Below, piece after piece: positions 25,028 through 30,238 of a stretch of DNA of 64,000 bases; position 1 is the first letter of the stretch, and each line of letters starts with the position of its first letter. Origin of the DNA: a virus (lineage: Duplodnaviria > Heunggongvirae > Uroviricota > Caudoviricetes); IMG/VR virus record IMGVR_UViG_646311924_000007, positions 32,001 through 96,000 of that record; one strand, written 5' to 3'. Below the pieces are notes generated by a model, which made no database searches, had not been told where the DNA came from, and saw nothing but the letters and a program-made list of their open reading frames with translations. A program made the position numbers and the translations under genes.

Positions 25028-25383
25028 TGTTTTTTATGTCGTATTTTCGGTACCATTCAGCCATCGCCCTTCAATGGGCATTTGTTTGGAGTCGTCAGAT
25101 GCAGATGGAGCTAATAAGCCGCAAAGAGTTCGATAGCCGTGTAACCAGCGGTGAACTCGACAACTTGCAGGCTATCAAGGTGAAAGAAGGCTTTTGCCTC
25201 ATTGGGAATCAGAGCGGAATAAATCGCGTTTTTATGCTTCGCCGTACGGATTTGAAGCCATTTGTCTGGAAGAACGAAATTGGTCCCAGCTCATACGCTC
25301 AAACGAGGGGGTGCCACAACCTGGCCTTTTTCTACAAAGACGAGCTTTCTGTGGTTGATATTCAAGGGTTACAACATGTTTAA
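25027..25383 (+). CDS. hypothetical protein upstream of hrdC (uhr position)
   Basis: 118-aa ORF; start uncertain. Confidence 0.4.
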
Positions 25384-26281
25384 GCACTGGAAAAACATTA
25401 CTATTTATAAACTTTCTCGTGAGGCGGATCTGACCGACTTAGAAGATAAAAAGAAAATGATCCTTTTCACGCCATGCGGTAGTCAGGATATGGCCAAGTT
25501 CGGTTTTGTATCGCCATTTGGTGATAATTCTGAAGTTATCGCTATGCATGGAAATGGTTTTATCCTTGTTGAAGCAAAGCGCGAAACAAAAATTCTTCCC
25601 CCGCCGGTTATCCAGCGAGCTATTCAAGAAAAAATTGAAAAACTTGAGCAAGAACAAGCGCGTAAACTGAAGAAAACAGAGAAGGACTCCCTGAAAGACG
25701 AAGTTCTGCATTCTCTTCTGCCACGGGCTTTTTCAAAGTTTTCTGTTATCCAGGCGATCTACGACGGTTCAACTAAACGTATCTATATCAATGCCAGCGC
25801 GCGGCAGGCAGAGGATATGCTCGCGCTTATGCGTAAGTCTCTGGGTTCTCTTCCTGCTGTTCCCCTGAGTGTTGAAAATCCCATTGAATTAACGCTGACC
25901 GACTGGGTACGTGATGGTAGTGCTCCACAGGGATTTCAAATGGGGGATGCGGCAGAACTTAAGGCAGTGCTTGAGGATGGCGGTATTGCCCGAGTGAAAA
26001 AGCAGGATTTGGGAAGCGATGAAATTTCCACACACCTGGAAGCTGGCAAGCTCGTCACTAAGTTGGCACTCGACTGGCAGAACCGCATTAAATTTACACT
26101 GGACCATAACTTCAGCCTTACCAGCGTCAAATTTGCGGATGAATTGCTTGAGCAGAACTCTGATATTGATAGTGAAGATGTTGCGCAGCGACTGGACGCA
26201 GATTTCTTCCTGTTGACCAGTGAAATTTCGTGCCTGGTTGATGCTCTGGTAAATGCCCTTGGCGGAGAGGCTAAGCAGTGA
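25376..26281 (+). CDS. hrdC: RdgC-like recombination-associated protein
   Basis: 302 aa from ATG 25376; long identity runs to E. coli RdgC as recalled ([45 protein letters not shown]). Confidence 0.85.
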
Positions 26282-29200
26282 AAGAGCTGTGCTATGGATC
26301 TGTTTGCAGTGGAATTGAAGCCGCGAGTATTGCCTGGGAACCGTTGGGTATGCGTCCGGCGTGGTTTGCTGAAATCGAGCCTTTTCCATCGGCCGTTCTT
26401 GCGCTCCGCTGGCCCCATGTTGCCAACCTTGGCGACATGAAAAAACTTGCCAAAAAAGTCTTGGCTGGGGAAATCGAATCCCCTGACGTGCTCGTCGGGG
26501 GAACACCATGTTTTACCGCGGGGCATATGGTTCTTTGTAAAAATGGCTATAAACCAATAGAAAATGTTTGCCCTGGTGATTACGTAGTCAGTCATCTCGG
26601 GCGGTTACAACAAGTAAAAAGAGTTGGTTCAAAAATAGCTAATACGGGGTTACTTAATGCCGTTGGGCAGCCTTTAGGTATAAGAACAACCAATGACCAT
26701 CCCTTCCTGGCTGTTCGGTGGAAAGCCCAAAACACCCGGAAAAATGGCACATATTTTAAGAGAGAGTTGTTGTCTGAACCGGAATGGCGAGCAGCATGTG
26801 ATATGCCGGGATATCAATGGTGCGCTCTAACTAATTTCAATATTGCATTTCCAGATATTTGTTCTCGGTTCTTGTCTGAAGAACAGGCTATGTATCTTGC
26901 GGGCGCTTATGTTGGCGATGGATATATTAGGAGATGGAGAGGTAAATCTAAGAAGGCGGTTGTTTTTGGCATAAATTGCCAGAAATTGAGAAAGTTTCAT
27001 TGCCGCATACCAGAAAACATATTTTCCGTGGCAAGCGAAATCCGAGGGAGCATCAAAGTAACCTTGAATGATACGTGTTATGCCAATTGGCTTAATGAAC
27101 ATTTTGGCGAGTTAAGCCATGCTAAGCGTATCCCTGCATGGGTGATGTCGCATCCATTGCGTCATGTGTTTTTACAAGGCTATCTTGATACTGATGGGAC
27201 ACCAAGTGGTAAAGCGGGATTTAGAATTAATAGTGTTAGTTCTGCGCTTGCTTGGGGCGTTGCGGGGTTGTCACAGACTTGTGGTTATGTTTCTTCGGTC
27301 AGCTTTATTGAAGTTGAGCCCAAAAAAGTGATCGAGGATCGCGTGGTAAATCAACGGAATTATTATCAGGTAACAATCTGCCCGCAGAAATTGTCACGTA
27401 AATCAAGATTGGCTCATGGAATGCTTTTACGAACAGTCAAAGAGTTTAAATCGGTAGGCCTAGATACTGTATACAACATAGAAGTCGAAGGTGATCATTC
27501 CTATATCCTCAATGGTGCGGTGGTCCATAACTGTCAGGCATTCAGTATCGCGGGATTACGTGGTGGGCTTGATGATGAGCGTGGCGCGCTAACTTTAAAG
27601 TATGTGGAGCTTGCAAATGCAATTGACGACAAACGGGCTGAGTCATTTCTCAAACCAGCCGTTATCGTCTGGGAAAATGTCCCAGGAGTCTTGTCATCGG
27701 CAGATAACGCCTTCGGATGTTTCCTTGCCGGATTGGCTGGAGAAGATGTGCCATTTGAACCAGGTGATCGACCTGAATCAGGAAAAAGCAACGCGTTCTG
27801 GCGGTGGGATGGCAAAACCGGTTGCCATGTTCCAAAGTGGCCGCAGTGTGGTTGTATTTATGGACCGCAGCGAAAAGTGGCCTGGAGAATCCTTGATGCC
27901 CAATACTTCGGAGTGGCACAACGACGCCGACGCGTGTTTGTTGTCGCAAGTGCTCGAACAGATCTCGATCCCGCAACGGTACTTTTTGAGTTCGAAGGCG
28001 TGCGCCGGAATATTGCGCCGAGCAGAGGCGAGGGGAAGGAAACTACCAGATATACTTCAAACATCGCTATCAGAACTTGCGATGATACAAACATAATTGC
28101 CATGGCACATGGGCAAGGAGGGGCTGAGATAAAAACCGATAATTCGGCACCAACTTTGACATGTAACCATGAAGCACCAATTGTATTGCTCGGCGACGGT
28201 AGAATGCGCCGTCTTACCCCTGTCGAATGTGAAAGGCTGCAAGGTTTTCCTGATTGGCATACGTTGATCCCTACGGAAAAGCGTAAAAAAGTTAATTCAG
28301 ATGAACTGGCATATCTGCACAATCACTATCCAGATTTAAGCGAAGAAGAGGCCGCAATGCTTGCAGCTGACGGACCGCGTTACAAAGCGATCGGCAATAG
28401 TATGGCAATACCAGTAATGCGCTGGATTGGCGATCGGATTACTAAGGCCGTATGTCGGCAGAAAGAAGGAAGTGAAACAAAAGAGCGAAAAGTTAAACCA
28501 GCGGCAGAATTCGAACGGTCCATATTCAAATGGGCTGGTGGAAAATTTGGTGTTCTGGAACAAATCTTTCGCTATTTGCCAGAAGGGAAGCGCCTGATTG
28601 AACCTTTCGTTGGTGGCGGAGCTGTCTTCATGAATGCCGGATACCAGGAAAATCTGCTAAATGATGTGAATGCTGACCTGATTAACTTTTACAAGACTCT
28701 GCAACGCGAGGCGCATTCACTTATCACTCTGGCACATCGTTTCTTCCAGGACTACAACACACAGGAAGGATACCTGGCAGTACGGAATGCGTTTAACAAA
28801 CAAGTCTATGATGATTTACATCGCGCAGCGGCGTTTTTGTTCCTGAACCGACATTGTTTTAACGGATTGACGCGTTACAACCAGGCCGGTGAGTTCAATG
28901 TCGGTTATGGGAAGTATAAAACTCCGTATTTCCCATTACAGGAGATGGAAGCCTTCCTCGGTGCGGAAGGGCGGTCTGAGTTTGTATGCGGTGATTTTGC
29001 AGCGGTGATTGAAGCTGCCGGAGAAGGAGATGTCATCTTTTGCGATCCGCCGTATGAACCGCTTCCAAATACAGAGGGATTCACGAACTATTCCGGTCAT
29101 GACTTTAAGTTTGAAGAGCAAAAACGCCTGGTGTCTCTGTTGACGGATGCTCATCGTCGAGGTGCAAAGGTTCTCATTACTAACAGTGGCGCGCCAAACA

Positions 29201-29319
29201 TCAGAGAGCTTTATCATGACAGTGGCTTCAGAGTGGAACCTCTTTTTGCCAGACGTTCTGTGTCTTGTAAGGGGGACACTCGAGGTGTAGCTCATGACGT
29301 TTTGGGTATATTGCTCTAA
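26278..29319 (+). CDS. dmt: bifunctional DNA methyltransferase Dmt (C5-cytosine MTase plus Dam-like N6-adenine MTase) carrying an intein
   Basis: GTG start overlapping hrdC stop; C5 motifs IV ([12 protein letters not shown], split), VI (ENV), IX ([16 protein letters not shown]), X (GNSMAIPV); Dam-like FKWAGGK and DPPY in C-terminal half. Confidence 0.85.
26509..27531 (+). mobile_element. intein with LAGLIDADG homing-endonuclease domain (341 aa) inside dmt
   Basis: Starts Cys (CFTAGHMVL), block B TTNDHPF, two LAGLIDADG motifs ([22 protein letters not shown]), ends [16 protein letters not shown] then +1 Cys; removal rejoins GGTP and CQAFSIAG. Confidence 0.8.
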
Positions 29320-29991: not shown

Positions 29992-30066
29992 GATGGTGTA
30001 GCTCAGCGGTAGAGCAGTTGGCTGTTAACCAACTGGTCGGTAGTTCGAATCCACCCACCATCGCCA
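29992..30066 (+). tRNA. tRNA-Asn (anticodon GUU)
   Basis: Hand-folded cloverleaf: acceptor GATGGTG/CACCATC, anticodon loop CTGTTAA, T-loop TTCGAAT, discriminator G, encoded CCA. Confidence 0.75.
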
Positions 30067-30071
30067 CTTTA

Positions 30072-30158
30072 GGGGAGTTAGTCCGTAGGGGTAGCGGGGT
30101 AGACTGTAAATCTACTGTCATTGCGACTCGGGTGGTTCGACTCCATCACTCCCCACCA
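30072..30158 (+). tRNA. class-II tRNA-like gene, anticodon GUA (Tyr-like)
   Basis: Acceptor GGGGAGT/ACTCCCC, anticodon arm GTAGA-CTGTAAA-TCTAC identical in loop to E. coli tRNA-Tyr as recalled, long variable arm, encoded CCA; D-arm region slightly irregular. Confidence 0.55.
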
Positions 30159-30162
30159 CATT

Positions 30163-30238
30163 GCCGATTTAGCTCAGTTGGTAGAGCAGTCGCTTTGTAA
30201 GCGAATGGTCAGCGGTTCGATCCCGTTAATCGGCACCA
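30163..30238 (+). tRNA. tRNA-Thr (anticodon UGU)
   Basis: Acceptor GCCGATT/AATCGGC, D-arm TAGCTCAGTTGGTAGAGC, anticodon loop TTTGTAA, T-loop TTCGATC, encoded CCA. Confidence 0.7.

What the first reader, a model, noticed from the sequence alone, without database searches (positions are those of the whole stretch)
26509..27531. LAGLIDADG intein inserted in the catalytic PCQ motif of the Dmt cytosine-C5 methyltransferase
The C5-MTase motif IV is split into GGTP and CQAFSIAG by a 341-aa insert. The insert has all the hallmarks of a class-1 intein: it starts with Cys (CFTAGHMVL), has a block-B TxxH (TTNDHPF), two LAGLIDADG homing-endonuclease motifs, and ends VVHN followed by a +1 Cys. That +1 Cys is the catalytic cysteine of the methyltransferase, so methylation should depend on protein splicing. 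I am not aware of a described intein in P1-family dmt genes.
Basis: partly seen in the sequence, partly recalled or inferred. Interest (0 to 1): 0.9.

Follow-up and report, generated by a model that had tools for sequence, protein, structure and literature searches.

The report
Intein splitting P1-family Dmt methyltransferase
The dmt gene of this P1-like phage-plasmid carries a canonical self-splicing intein with a homing-endonuclease domain, inserted just before the catalytic cysteine of its cytosine methyltransferase; it is a real but ordinary kind of element, present unremarked in about a quarter of sequenced P1-like plasmids.

Summary
ORF 26278-29319 (+) encodes a 1013-aa P1-family Dmt, a C5-cytosine MTase fused to Dam. 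Codons 78-418 (26509-27531, 341 aa) are exactly absent from P1, P7 and about 370 other P1-like dmt genes. The gap lies between GGTP and CQAFSIAG.

The insert is a class-1 intein. It has Cys1, TxxH, two LAGLIDADG motifs with their acidic residues, and blocks F/G ending HN followed by +1 Cys. It scores above curated cut-offs for LAGLIDADG_3 and intein_Cterm. The AlphaFold model (pLDDT 90.8) best matches PI-SceI (E 3e-17). The +1 Cys aligns with the M.HhaI PCQ motif cysteine.

- **Prevalence:** it occurs in 128 PLSDB plasmids, 151 of 5,426 complete E. coli genomes and three deposited phages, always annotated only as a methyltransferase.
- **Spread:** intein copies differ by at most 1.2% while their N-exteins differ by up to 9.5%, and it combines freely with both target-recognition-domain variants.
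- **Linked marker:** Pro77 is CCA in intein-plus alleles and CCT in intein-free ones.
- **Wider family:** homologous inteins occupy the same P|C site in at least 123 other C5-MTase clusters.

I found no paper describing it. Splicing and homing are inferred, not shown. Only C5 methylation should need splicing; the Dam domain probably does not. Verdict: a new member of a known kind, moderate interest.

The parts
26278..29319 (+). dmt precursor ORF, 1013 aa plus stop: C5-cytosine MTase with intein, fused to Dam
   Evidence: ORF list. Pfam PF00145 and PF02086; NCBIfam TIGR00571 dam at 249 bits. 99% nt identity to dmt of OP279344 and 96-98% to P1/P7 dmt outside the insert.
26278..26508 (+). N-extein, 77 aa: C5-MTase motif I through GGTP of motif IV
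   Evidence: Alignment A1; alignment to M.HhaI.
26506..26508 (+). Pro77 codon CCA, a synonymous marker that tracked the intein in every allele examined
   Evidence: CCA in 9/9 sampled intein-plus alleles and CCT in 6/6 intein-free alleles. None of 66 + 217 intein-free junctions has CCA. None of 91 intein-plus junctions has CCT.
26509..27531 (+). Class-1 intein, 341 aa (Cys1 to Asn341)
   Evidence: Exact presence/absence polymorphism. Hint_2 28.1 bits, LAGLIDADG_3 34.2 bits, TIGR01443 25.9 bits. AF2 pLDDT 90.8. Foldseek best match PI-SceI at E 2.9e-17. GC 0.42-0.44 against 0.50-0.52 in the flanks.
26509..26547 (+). Intein block A ([13 protein letters not shown]), with Cys1 as the first nucleophile
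   Evidence: C1, F2 and G5 are nearly invariant among homologues. Hint_2 alignment starts at residue 1.
26689..26700 (+). Intein block B TxxH (T61-N-D-H64)
   Evidence: T61 and H64 are nearly invariant in A2; regex check.
26866..27378 (+). LAGLIDADG homing-endonuclease domain (about intein residues 120-290)
   Evidence: PF14528 above its gathering cut-off. Alpha/beta core in the AF2 model. Foldseek matches to I-DmoI, I-SceI and the PI-SceI endonuclease domain. PI-PkoII sequence match.
26890..26928 (+). LAGLIDADG motif 1 ([13 protein letters not shown]), putative catalytic Asp137
   Evidence: D137 and G138 nearly invariant.
27166..27204 (+). LAGLIDADG motif 2 ([13 protein letters not shown]), putative catalytic Asp229
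   Evidence: G224 nearly invariant.
27466..27531 (+). Intein blocks F and G ([22 protein letters not shown]), ending His340-Asn341
   Evidence: TIGR01443 intein_Cterm above its cut-off. Alignment to the Spl DnaX mini-intein C-terminus. V321, N323, V326, V339 and N341 invariant.
27532..27534 (+). +1 Cys: the C-extein nucleophile for splicing and the Cys of the C5-MTase PCQ motif IV
   Evidence: Invariant C342 in A2. It aligns with the Cys of GFPCQAFS in M.HhaI. That this is the catalytic Cys81 is established knowledge.
27532..28509 (+). C-extein part 1: rest of the C5-MTase (CQAFS, ENV, QRRRR, short target-recognition variant, GNS motif)
   Evidence: PF00145 stretches; A1; M.HhaI alignment.
28510..29316 (+). 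C-extein part 2: Dam (D12-class N6-adenine MTase) domain, not interrupted by the intein
   Evidence: PF02086 at aa 752-984 and TIGR00571 at aa 748-1007.

Best explanation
The 1023-nt segment is a canonical class-1 intein with an embedded LAGLIDADG homing-endonuclease domain. It is inserted in the dmt gene of a P1-like phage-plasmid between Pro77 and the cysteine of the C5-cytosine methyltransferase PCQ motif.

Inferred mechanism: dmt is translated as a 1013-aa precursor.
1. Cys1 makes the N-S acyl shift.
2. The +1 Cys, which is also the future methyltransferase nucleophile, takes the N-extein by trans-thioesterification.
3. Asn341 cyclises, assisted by His340.
4. The 672-aa Dmt is released with an intact GGTPCQAFS motif, together with a free intein of about 39 kDa.

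C5 methylation therefore requires splicing. The C-terminal Dam domain is uninterrupted and probably does not.

At the DNA level the free intein probably cuts intein-less dmt alleles of co-resident P1-like elements at the GGTP/CQ junction. Repair from the intein-plus copy would then copy it in (homing). This would explain its patchy distribution among otherwise near-identical phage-plasmids.

Shown here: the anatomy, the fold, the exact presence/absence polymorphism, the population pattern and the family-wide site conservation. Inferred: splicing, endonuclease activity and ongoing homing.
For: - **Exact insert:** the 341-codon in-frame insert is absent from P1, P7 and MH422554 and from about 370 of 496 PLSDB dmt genes, where the record span is 600 nt instead of 1623 nt.
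- **Profile hits:** LAGLIDADG_3 scores 34.2 bits (cut-off 22.5), Hint_2 28.1 (cut-off 28.4) and TIGR01443 intein_Cterm 25.9 (cut-off 15.6).
- **Splicing residues:** C1, T61xxH64, H340-N341 and C+1 are present in the window; all but H340 (K, S, R, Y or F in some homologues) are invariant or nearly invariant across homologues of 28-53% identity.
- **Fold:** the AF2 model has pLDDT 90.8 and pTM 0.88. Its top Foldseek hits are PI-SceI (E 2.9e-17), the TliVMA intein, PI-PfuI and PI-PkoII.
- **Catalytic Cys:** the +1 Cys aligns with the cysteine of the M.HhaI GFPCQAFS motif.
- **Intact genes:** all 9 sampled intein-plus dmt ORFs are intact.
- **Selection:** polymorphisms within the intein are 10 synonymous to 11 non-synonymous against about 78% non-synonymous expected (binomial p = 0.009). 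Pairwise dN/dS is 0.1-0.6.
- **Spread:** intein divergence is at most 1.17% while the adjacent N-extein diverges by up to 9.5% and the C-extein by up to 5.4%.
- **Recombination or homing:** all four combinations of intein plus/minus with short/long target-recognition variant exist.
- **Linked marker:** Pro77 CCA tracked intein presence in every allele examined. A second, entirely synonymous N-flank haplotype occurs in L008-L010. Both fit co-conversion tracts.
- **Composition:** GC is 0.42-0.44 against 0.50-0.52 in the flanks.
- **Site conservation:** 123 of the best 150 representative clusters carry the homologous intein at P|C...N|CQxxSxAG of C5-MTases.
Against: - No experimental evidence of splicing or DNA cleavage exists for this element.
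- Hint_2 falls 0.3 bits below Pfam's gathering score, and Intein_splicing (PF14890) is well below its cut-off.
- C5-MTase activity of P1 Dmt itself is only 'perhaps' in the P1 annotation, so the functional cost of a non-splicing insert is unknown.
- The polymorphism counts are small (21 sites).
- The mosaic pattern could arise from ordinary homologous recombination among P1-like elements without an active endonuclease.
- At least one relative, in Mannheimia phage 587AP2, keeps the intein in a methyltransferase gene that is broken just after CQ. Retention of the intein therefore does not prove that the host enzyme works.
Confidence: 0.85

Rival explanations
1. It is a genuine, splicing-competent intein whose endonuclease is no longer active. 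On this reading its patchy distribution reflects vertical inheritance plus the general homologous recombination that makes P1-like genomes mosaic, not current homing.
For: - The dmt region is clearly mosaic independently of the intein: the target-recognition region is dimorphic and the N-extein has several haplotypes.
- Only about 26% of dmt genes carry it, so it has not swept the population.
- One homologue (P0009) has Asn in place of the second-motif Asp, showing that endonuclease decay occurs in this family.
Against: - Both LAGLIDADG acidic residues are intact in the window.
- The excess of synonymous change is spread over the whole intein, including the endonuclease domain.
- The intein is 4-8 times less diverged than its immediate flanks. 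A hitch-hiking passenger should be as diverged as its flanks.
- A LAGLIDADG-type motif is retained in 117 of 123 related clusters.
Confidence: 0.3
2. It is a dead intein. The insert no longer splices, the C5-MTase module is inactivated, and the gene persists only for its Dam domain, which would be active in the unspliced precursor or made from an internal start.
For: - The C5 activity of P1 Dmt is unproven, whereas the Dam activity is the one known to matter, for pac cleavage in Dam-minus hosts (PMC12707154).
- P7's annotation predicts an internal late promoter upstream of the Dam part. Its homologue in the window (28289-28307) differs at 2 of 19 positions.
- The Mannheimia phage relative has a broken C-extein.
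- The reference P1 Dmt carries G74W in GGTPC, hinting that the C5 module is dispensable.
Against: - All four classes of splicing residues are intact, and all but the penultimate His are invariant or nearly invariant across distant homologues.
- All nine sampled precursor ORFs are open through both exteins and keep all C5-MTase motifs.
- The intein shows purifying selection.
- A non-splicing 341-aa insert in an unselected domain would be expected to accumulate stops and frameshifts across 125 or more copies. None was seen in the sampled set.
Confidence: 0.1
3. It is not an intein but another kind of insertion: a group I/II intron, an IS element, a bacterial intein-like (BIL) domain, or a free-standing endonuclease domain fused in frame.
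For: The TGT at both junctions could superficially look like a 3-bp target duplication. In-frame endonuclease insertions without a Hint domain do exist in actinophage methylases (PMC9957025).
Against: - No Rfam intron family matches, and the insert is an uninterrupted in-frame ORF.
- There is no transposase.
- The Hint fold surrounds the endonuclease domain in the model.
- The insert ends HN with a +1 Cys inside a highly conserved catalytic motif. BIL domains instead sit in variable regions and lack this arrangement (established knowledge).
Confidence: 0.02

Closest known systems
PI-SceI (yeast VMA1 intein) and the archaeal LAGLIDADG inteins PI-PfuI, PI-PkoII and the TliVMA intein
   Same: Same two-domain architecture: a Hint splicing domain split by a LAGLIDADG endonuclease. 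It is class 1, with Cys1, TxxH, HN and +1 Cys. These are the best structural matches (E 2.9e-17 to 1e-8, TM about 0.5-0.6).
   Different: Only 11-17% sequence identity. The host proteins differ (V-ATPase, RNR, polymerase). This intein is smaller (341 aa against 454-537) and lacks the extra DNA-recognition region of PI-SceI. The host here is a temperate phage-plasmid of E. coli.
Inteins of actinophage orphan DNA methylases (DNMT-1/2 in Kelley et al. 2016, PMC5050341; the Dorothy_75 family in Gosselin et al. 2023, PMC9957025)
   Same: The host is a phage-encoded orphan DNA methyltransferase. They are LAGLIDADG inteins with a patchy distribution and evidence of transfer between divergent methylase alleles. 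They show detectable homology, about 27% identity over the full length.
   Different: The extein is an N6_N4 (ParB-type) methylase annotated 'DNA methylase N-4'. The junction in Pacc40 gp60 is ...QMHV|CLARGS...VVKN|CPLQFD. That is not the PCQ motif of a C5-MTase, and the +1 Cys there is not a methyl-transfer nucleophile.
Uncharacterised homologous inteins at the same P|CQ site of other C5-MTases (Mannheimia phage vB_MhS_587AP2, E. coli jumbo phage A4, and more than 120 metagenomic clusters; related inteins lie in methylase genes of Propionibacterium phage B22 and Pseudomonas phage Lana, whose junctions were not checked)
   Same: Identical insertion point, xxP|CF...HN|CQxxSxAG, with 26-56% identity. 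This is one intein 'allele' family. P0022 is even another C5-MTase plus Dam fusion.
   Different: The hosts and phage types differ. None was annotated as an intein in the records seen. Some are mini-inteins (P0019) or sit in decayed genes (Mannheimia). The window's copy belongs to the P1 family, where intein-plus and intein-free alleles coexist at high identity.
Related intein in thymidylate synthase ThyA (P0098); tblastn matches also fall in the thymidylate synthase genes of Aeromonas phages PS1/PS2, junctions not inspected
   Same: About 26-29% identical inteins. In P0098 the intein is also inserted directly before a catalytic Cys that follows Pro (ALPP|C...HN|CHMSAVF). The enzyme likewise attacks pyrimidine C6 with a cysteine. 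The catalytic role of the ThyA P-C-H cysteine is established knowledge.
   Different: A different enzyme family and substrate (dUMP, not DNA). Only the P0098 junction was inspected here.

Membership tests
Class-1 intein | N-terminal nucleophile (Cys/Ser) at position 1, block A | tested here: met
   Cys1 in CFTAGHMVL. C1 is nearly invariant in homologues. The Hint_2 alignment starts at residue 1.
Class-1 intein | Block B TxxH | tested here: met
   T61-N-D-H64. T61 and H64 are nearly invariant.
Class-1 intein | Blocks F/G ending His-Asn, followed by a +1 Cys/Ser/Thr | tested here: met
   [21 protein letters not shown]|C. TIGR01443 scores 25.9 bits against a cut-off of 15.6. N341 and C342 are invariant.
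Class-1 intein | Hint (Hedgehog/intein) fold | tested here: met
   AF2 model pLDDT 90.8. Foldseek matches PI-SceI, the TliVMA intein, the Prp8 intein and the gp41-1 intein. Pfam Hint_2 is 0.3 bits below its gathering score.
Class-1 intein | In-frame insert at a conserved site of a host protein, precisely absent from orthologues | tested here: met
   341-aa gap in P1, P7, MH422554 and L012-L014. About 370 PLSDB records lack exactly 1023 nt.
Class-1 intein | Autocatalytic protein splicing yielding ligated exteins and free intein | not testable with these tools
   Needs expression with western blot or mass spectrometry, and C1A/N341A mutants.
LAGLIDADG (DOD) homing endonuclease | Two LAGLIDADG motifs, each with a terminal acidic residue, in an alpha-beta-beta-alpha-beta-beta-alpha core | tested here: met
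   Motifs at residues 128-140 (D137) and 220-232 (D229). PF14528 scores 34.2 bits against 22.5. Structural matches to I-DmoI, I-SceI and I-OnuI.
LAGLIDADG (DOD) homing endonuclease | Site-specific cleavage of the intein-less allele, and homing | not testable with these tools
   Indirect support only: the intein is at most 1.2% diverged in flanks up to 9.5% diverged, all four intein/target-recognition-variant combinations exist, and a flanking synonymous marker is linked.
P1-family Dmt (C5-MTase plus Dam fusion) | N-terminal PF00145 C5-MTase motifs and a C-terminal D12-class Dam domain in one ORF | tested here: met
   PF00145 at 104.9 bits in 4 stretches, PF02086 at 192 bits, TIGR00571 at 249 bits.
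P1-family Dmt (C5-MTase plus Dam fusion) | Orthology and synteny with P1 dmt (uhr-hrdC-dmt, then the tRNA cluster) | tested here: met
   96-99% nt identity to dmt of P1, P7, RCS47 and OP279344 outside the insert. An RdgC/HrdC-like ORF lies at 25262-26281. tRNA-Asn/Tyr/Thr lie at 29992-30238, as in Ro157c2YLVW.
Class-3 intein | No Cys1/Ser1; a WCT triplet with a block-F Cys as nucleophile | tested here: not met
   Cys1 is present. Block F is [14 protein letters not shown], with no Cys.
Bacterial intein-like (BIL) domain | A Hint domain in variable regions of non-conserved proteins, usually lacking the +1 nucleophile and an endonuclease | tested here: not met
   It is inserted in the most conserved catalytic motif, has HN plus Cys+1, and contains a LAGLIDADG domain. 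The BIL structure 2lwy is only a weak match.

The most novel reading that the evidence does not exclude
The dmt intein may be an actively homing element now spreading among P1-like phage-plasmids of Enterobacteriaceae. On this reading the linked Pro77 CCA/CCT difference marks either the minimal co-conversion tract or a cleavage-resistant target. Splicing would also be conditional, for example redox-gated through Cys1, Cys+1 or the ten other intein cysteines, so that the phage's C5-cytosine methylation is switched on post-translationally at a particular stage of lysogeny or lytic growth. More broadly, one intein lineage may have specialised on the Pro-Cys catalytic dipeptide shared by C5-MTases and thymidylate synthase.
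Probability: 0.12. Interest if true: 0.75.

Novelty: new member of a known kind. Interest (0 to 1): 0.5.

Why it matters
- **A model system.** P1 is a classic E. coli phage, and E. coli is the standard host for intein work. A natural, apparently intact LAGLIDADG intein that is polymorphic (about 26% of alleles) among near-identical P1-like phage-plasmids offers a tractable system. It could be used to measure splicing, homing, co-conversion and the intein 'homing cycle' in the native host. One deposited laboratory-type P1 derivative (OP279344) already carries it.
- **Annotation.** More than 100 RefSeq proteins named only 'Dam family methyltransferase' are precursors. Their mature product is 341 aa shorter and has a second, C5-cytosine activity that depends on splicing.
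- **Insertion site.** The +1 nucleophile doubles as the methyltransferase catalytic cysteine, and the site is shared by at least 123 further C5-MTase clusters. This is a clear example of inteins targeting catalytic residues, and I could not find this site described in the searchable literature.
- **Limits.** It is not a new mechanism.

Tried and rejected
- **Intron:** the Rfam E-value scan of 26200-27800 gave only a chance SAM_alpha hit at 17 bits against a gathering score of 36. The insert is also an open in-frame ORF. Rejected.
- **IS or transposon with a 3-bp TGT duplication:** there is no transposase, and the whole insert is Hint plus LAGLIDADG. Rejected.
- **BIL domain or a free-standing endonuclease insertion without Hint:** rejected on fold and termini.
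- **Same site as the published actinophage methylase inteins?** Checked on Pacc40 gp60. It is a different extein family and junction (HV|C...KN|CPLQ), so it is not the same site.
- **Literature:** ten full-text searches combined intein with P1, dmt, Punavirus, RCS47, phage-plasmid, cytosine-5, cytosine-specific, cytosine methyltransferase or PF00145. None returned a paper describing an intein in P1 dmt or at the C5-MTase PC motif. The library lacks most subscription journals, and InBase and REBASE could not be queried, so absence is not proven.
- **PDB sequence search with the intein alone:** only weak hits (E 0.0015 to 0.18). The structure route was needed.
- **Not done:** I did not fetch all 496 PLSDB alleles, so the intein-versus-extein phylogenetic incongruence rests on 15 sampled alleles plus four junction-specific BLAST censuses.
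Full report
**1. The observation**

ORF 26278..29319 (+) is a 1013-aa protein. At 26509 the reading frame goes from ...GGA ACA CCA (G-T-P) into TGT TTT ACC GCG (C-F-T-A). At 27529-27531 it ends GTC CAT AAC (V-H-N) and continues TGT CAG GCA (C-Q-A). The segment is 1023 nt, or 341 codons, in frame and without stops. These are [16 protein letters not shown] with TxxH at residues 61-64, the two LAGLIDADG motifs at 128-140 and 220-232, and VVHN|C.

**2. The host gene**

Pfam and NCBIfam identify an N-terminal C5-cytosine DNA methyltransferase (PF00145, matched in four stretches that skip the insert). They also identify a C-terminal Dam-type N6-adenine methyltransferase: PF02086 at 192 bits and TIGR00571 at 249 bits.

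- Megablast against phage genomes finds dmt/dam of P1, P7, RCS47, SJ46 and other Punavirus members at 96-99% identity.
- Synteny is the P1 one, with an RdgC-like hrdC upstream. A tRNA-Asn/Tyr/Thr cluster lies downstream at 29992-30238.
- The window is therefore part of a P1-like phage-plasmid.
- The Dam activity of P1 dmt is needed for pac-site packaging in Dam-minus hosts (PMC12707154).
- The C5 activity is only 'perhaps' in the P1 annotation.

**3. A discrete insert**

In a seven-protein alignment, P7 Dam (672 aa), MH422554 (672 aa) and P1 Dmt (754 aa) lack exactly the 341 residues. The gap lies between GGTP and [10 protein letters not shown]279344 ('P1 del res del mod'), vB_EcoM-Ro157c2YLVW and RCS47 carry the insert.

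- In PLSDB, 496 plasmids carry the 5' part of dmt.
- Of these, 125 match over the full query including the insert.
- In the intein-free rows listed (about 370 records by subtraction), the matched pieces span exactly 600 nt in the record instead of 1623 nt.
- Searches with the insert alone and with the C-extein alone give 128 and 491 records, about 26%.
- Among 5,426 complete E. coli genomes, 151 carry it, with 147 copies on plasmids and 5 on chromosomes.
- Everywhere the gene is annotated only as a Dam-family or DNA methyltransferase.

**4. It is an intein**

- LAGLIDADG_3 scores 34.2 bits (cut-off 22.5).
- TIGR01443 'intein C-terminal splicing region' scores 25.9 bits (cut-off 15.6).
- Hint_2 scores 28.1 bits, 0.3 bits under its cut-off.
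- PDB sequence hits are weak but apt: the Spl DnaX mini-intein C-terminus, the PI-PkoII endonuclease region and a BIL domain N-terminus.
- An AlphaFold2 model built on an alignment of homologues is confident, with mean pLDDT 90.8 and pTM 0.88.
- Foldseek against the PDB returns intein-endonucleases at the top: PI-SceI (E 2.9e-17), the TliVMA intein, PI-PfuI and PI-PkoII. Free-standing LAGLIDADG enzymes and mini-inteins follow.
- The residues that define a class-1 intein are all present: Cys1, Thr61/His64, His340-Asn341 and Cys+1. All except His340 are invariant or nearly invariant in homologues of only 28-53% identity; some homologues carry Lys, Ser, Arg, Tyr or Phe at the penultimate position.
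- Both LAGLIDADG motifs keep their terminal Asp, D137 and D229.
- No Rfam intron family matches.

**5. The insertion site**

The spliced sequence [12 protein letters not shown] aligns with AGFPCQAFSISG of M.HhaI. The cysteine of that motif is the catalytic nucleophile of C5-MTases (Cys81 in M.HhaI; established knowledge). The +1 Cys needed for trans-esterification is therefore the methyltransferase's own catalytic cysteine. In the precursor, motif IV is separated from motifs I-III by 341 residues. The C5 activity should thus need splicing.

**6. Population evidence for mobility and selection**

I fetched nine intein-plus and six intein-free alleles.

- **Intact genes.** All nine intein-plus ORFs are intact.
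- **Divergence.** Pairwise divergence among intein-plus alleles is 0.68% on average (maximum 1.17%) in the intein. It is 4.3% (maximum 9.5%) in the 231-nt N-extein and 3.2% (maximum 5.4%) in the first 520 nt of the C-extein. The intein is much more uniform than the DNA it sits in.
- **Independent assortment.** The dmt target-recognition region exists in a short form and a long form (+82 aa). All four combinations with intein presence or absence occur.
- **Selection.** Within the intein there are 10 synonymous and 11 non-synonymous polymorphic sites, where about 78% non-synonymous would be expected without selection (binomial p = 0.009). Pairwise dN/dS is 0.1-0.6.
- **Composition.** The intein is AT-richer than its flanks, with GC 0.42-0.44 against 0.50-0.52.

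**The linked Pro77 marker.** The Pro77 codon next to the insertion is CCA in 9/9 intein-plus alleles and CCT in 6/6 intein-free alleles. Three junction-specific searches extend this.

- An artificial intein-free junction with CCA finds no exact match among 66 records of one flank type. The best hits have two mismatches.
- The same test finds no exact match among 217 records of the P1/P7 flank type. The best hits have one mismatch.
- An artificial intein-plus junction with CCT has no exact match among 91 records.

Three intein-plus alleles (L008-L010) also carry a distinct, entirely synonymous haplotype in the last 20 nt of the N-extein. These patterns are what co-conversion during homing would leave. 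They do not prove that the endonuclease is active today.

**7. A wider family**

All word-indexed homologues of the intein lie in PF00145 proteins at the same site. An exhaustive phmmer search of 1.84 billion representatives gives 186 clusters at E < 1e-30.

- Of the best 150, 123 have the pattern P|C...N|CQxxSxAG.
- Of those 123, 109 have an ENV-type motif (EN[VS]) within 80 residues downstream.
- Members include another C5-MTase plus Dam fusion (P0022).
- They also include a mini-intein in a phage-like contig (P0019).
- They include the methyltransferase of Mannheimia phage 587AP2, which is broken after CQ.
- They include the DNA-cytosine methyltransferase of E. coli jumbo phage A4, with the junction GGFP|CFPAGT...VVHN|CQAWSVAG.
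- Related inteins of about 26-29% identity sit in thymidylate synthase. In P0098 the insertion is before the Cys of P-C-H.

**8. Comparison with what is known**

The architecture and chemistry are those of canonical class-1 LAGLIDADG inteins such as PI-SceI. The closest published case is the intein of actinophage orphan DNA methylases (PMC5050341, PMC9957025).

- That intein is about 27% identical to this one.
- Its extein is an N6_N4 methylase, and its junction in Pacc40 gp60 is HV|C...KN|CPLQ. It is a different family and site.
- Ten full-text searches found no description of an intein in P1-family dmt or at the C5-MTase PC motif.
- The library is incomplete, and InBase and REBASE could not be consulted.
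- Some database names already flag the domains. Examples are 'Hint domain-containing protein' for fragments and 'DOD-type homing endonuclease...' for the Mannheimia protein.

**9. Verdict**

It is a new, apparently undescribed member of a well-known kind of element. It has a neat insertion site and a useful natural polymorphism in a model phage family. Splicing, C5-MTase dependence on splicing, and homing are inferences that simple experiments could settle.

- Interest: 0.5.
- Confidence in the intein identification: about 0.95.
- Confidence in splicing competence: about 0.85.
- Confidence in currently active homing: about 0.5.

Noticed in passing
P0098 (representative-library protein, 984 aa); Aeromonas phage PS1/PS2 thymidylate synthase (H220-H222): Inteins about 26-29% identical to the dmt intein occur in thymidylate synthase. 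In P0098 the junction is ALPP|C...HN|CHMSAVF, directly before the Cys of the ThyA P-C-H motif. One intein lineage therefore seems to target a Pro-Cys catalytic dipeptide in two mechanistically analogous enzyme families.
   Followed up: partly
window 27990-28230 approx. (aa 572-650 of Dmt); L002, L003, L005, L007, L009, L010, L013, L014: The target-recognition region of the C5-MTase is dimorphic. The short form occurs in the window, P7, OP279344 and MH422554. A long form with 82 extra residues and unrelated sequence occurs in P1, RCS47 and Ro157c2. This suggests two different cytosine-methylation specificities in the P1 family, assorting independently of the intein.
   Followed up: partly
L005 (AF234172, reference P1 mod749::IS5 c1.100), Dmt residue 74: The reference P1 Dmt has Trp in place of the Gly found in all 14 other alleles: VLVWGTPCQ against VLVGGTPCQ. 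This is a change inside motif IV that might impair the C5 activity of the laboratory strain.
   Followed up: no
L015 (E. fergusonii pRHB38-C01_2, NZ_CP057105.1) 1-2500: The similarity to dmt begins only at query nt 251, which is 20 nt inside the intein. Two IS91-family transposase copies lie directly upstream. The N-extein and Cys1 have been lost, yet RefSeq still annotates a 1031-aa 'Dam family' CDS.
   Followed up: no
L019 (Mannheimia phage vB_MhS_587AP2) 1264-3100; P0010: An intact 47%-identical intein is retained, but the C-extein reading frame ends 22 aa after CQ. The rest of the C5-MTase continues in another frame as a separate annotated CDS, next to an HNH endonuclease gene. This is a decayed host gene with a preserved intein, seen on 578 contigs.
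   Followed up: partly
window 28289-28307: This is the homologue of the 'predicted late promoter LPdam2' annotated inside P7 dam, with 2 mismatches in 19 nt. If it is functional, a late transcript could give a Dam-only product that bypasses the intein-containing part.
   Followed up: no
L001 (OP279344.1, 'Escherichia phage P1 isolate del res del mod', host MG1655 Z1): A deposited laboratory-type P1 derivative carries the intein-plus, short-variant dmt allele, 99% identical to the window. The classical P1 reference has the intein-free, long-variant allele. Stocks called 'P1' therefore differ at this locus.
   Followed up: no
E. coli complete genomes, e.g. NZ_CP015229.1 1844818-1845840: Five of the 152 intein copies in complete E. 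coli genomes lie on chromosomes rather than plasmids. These are presumably integrated or mis-assembled P1-like elements.
   Followed up: no
P0069 (1485 aa): This is a C5-MTase representative carrying two inteins. The copy matched by the dmt intein has the junction WASPD|CF...VVHN|CRHHS rather than P|CQ. Pfam places a second Hint plus LAGLIDADG unit (about residues 503-869) just upstream of the matched C5-MTase stretch.
   Followed up: no
window 26409-26474 (+): A sub-threshold Rfam SAM_alpha riboswitch match (17.2 bits against a gathering score of 36, E 0.58) lies inside the N-extein coding sequence. It is almost certainly chance.
   Followed up: no
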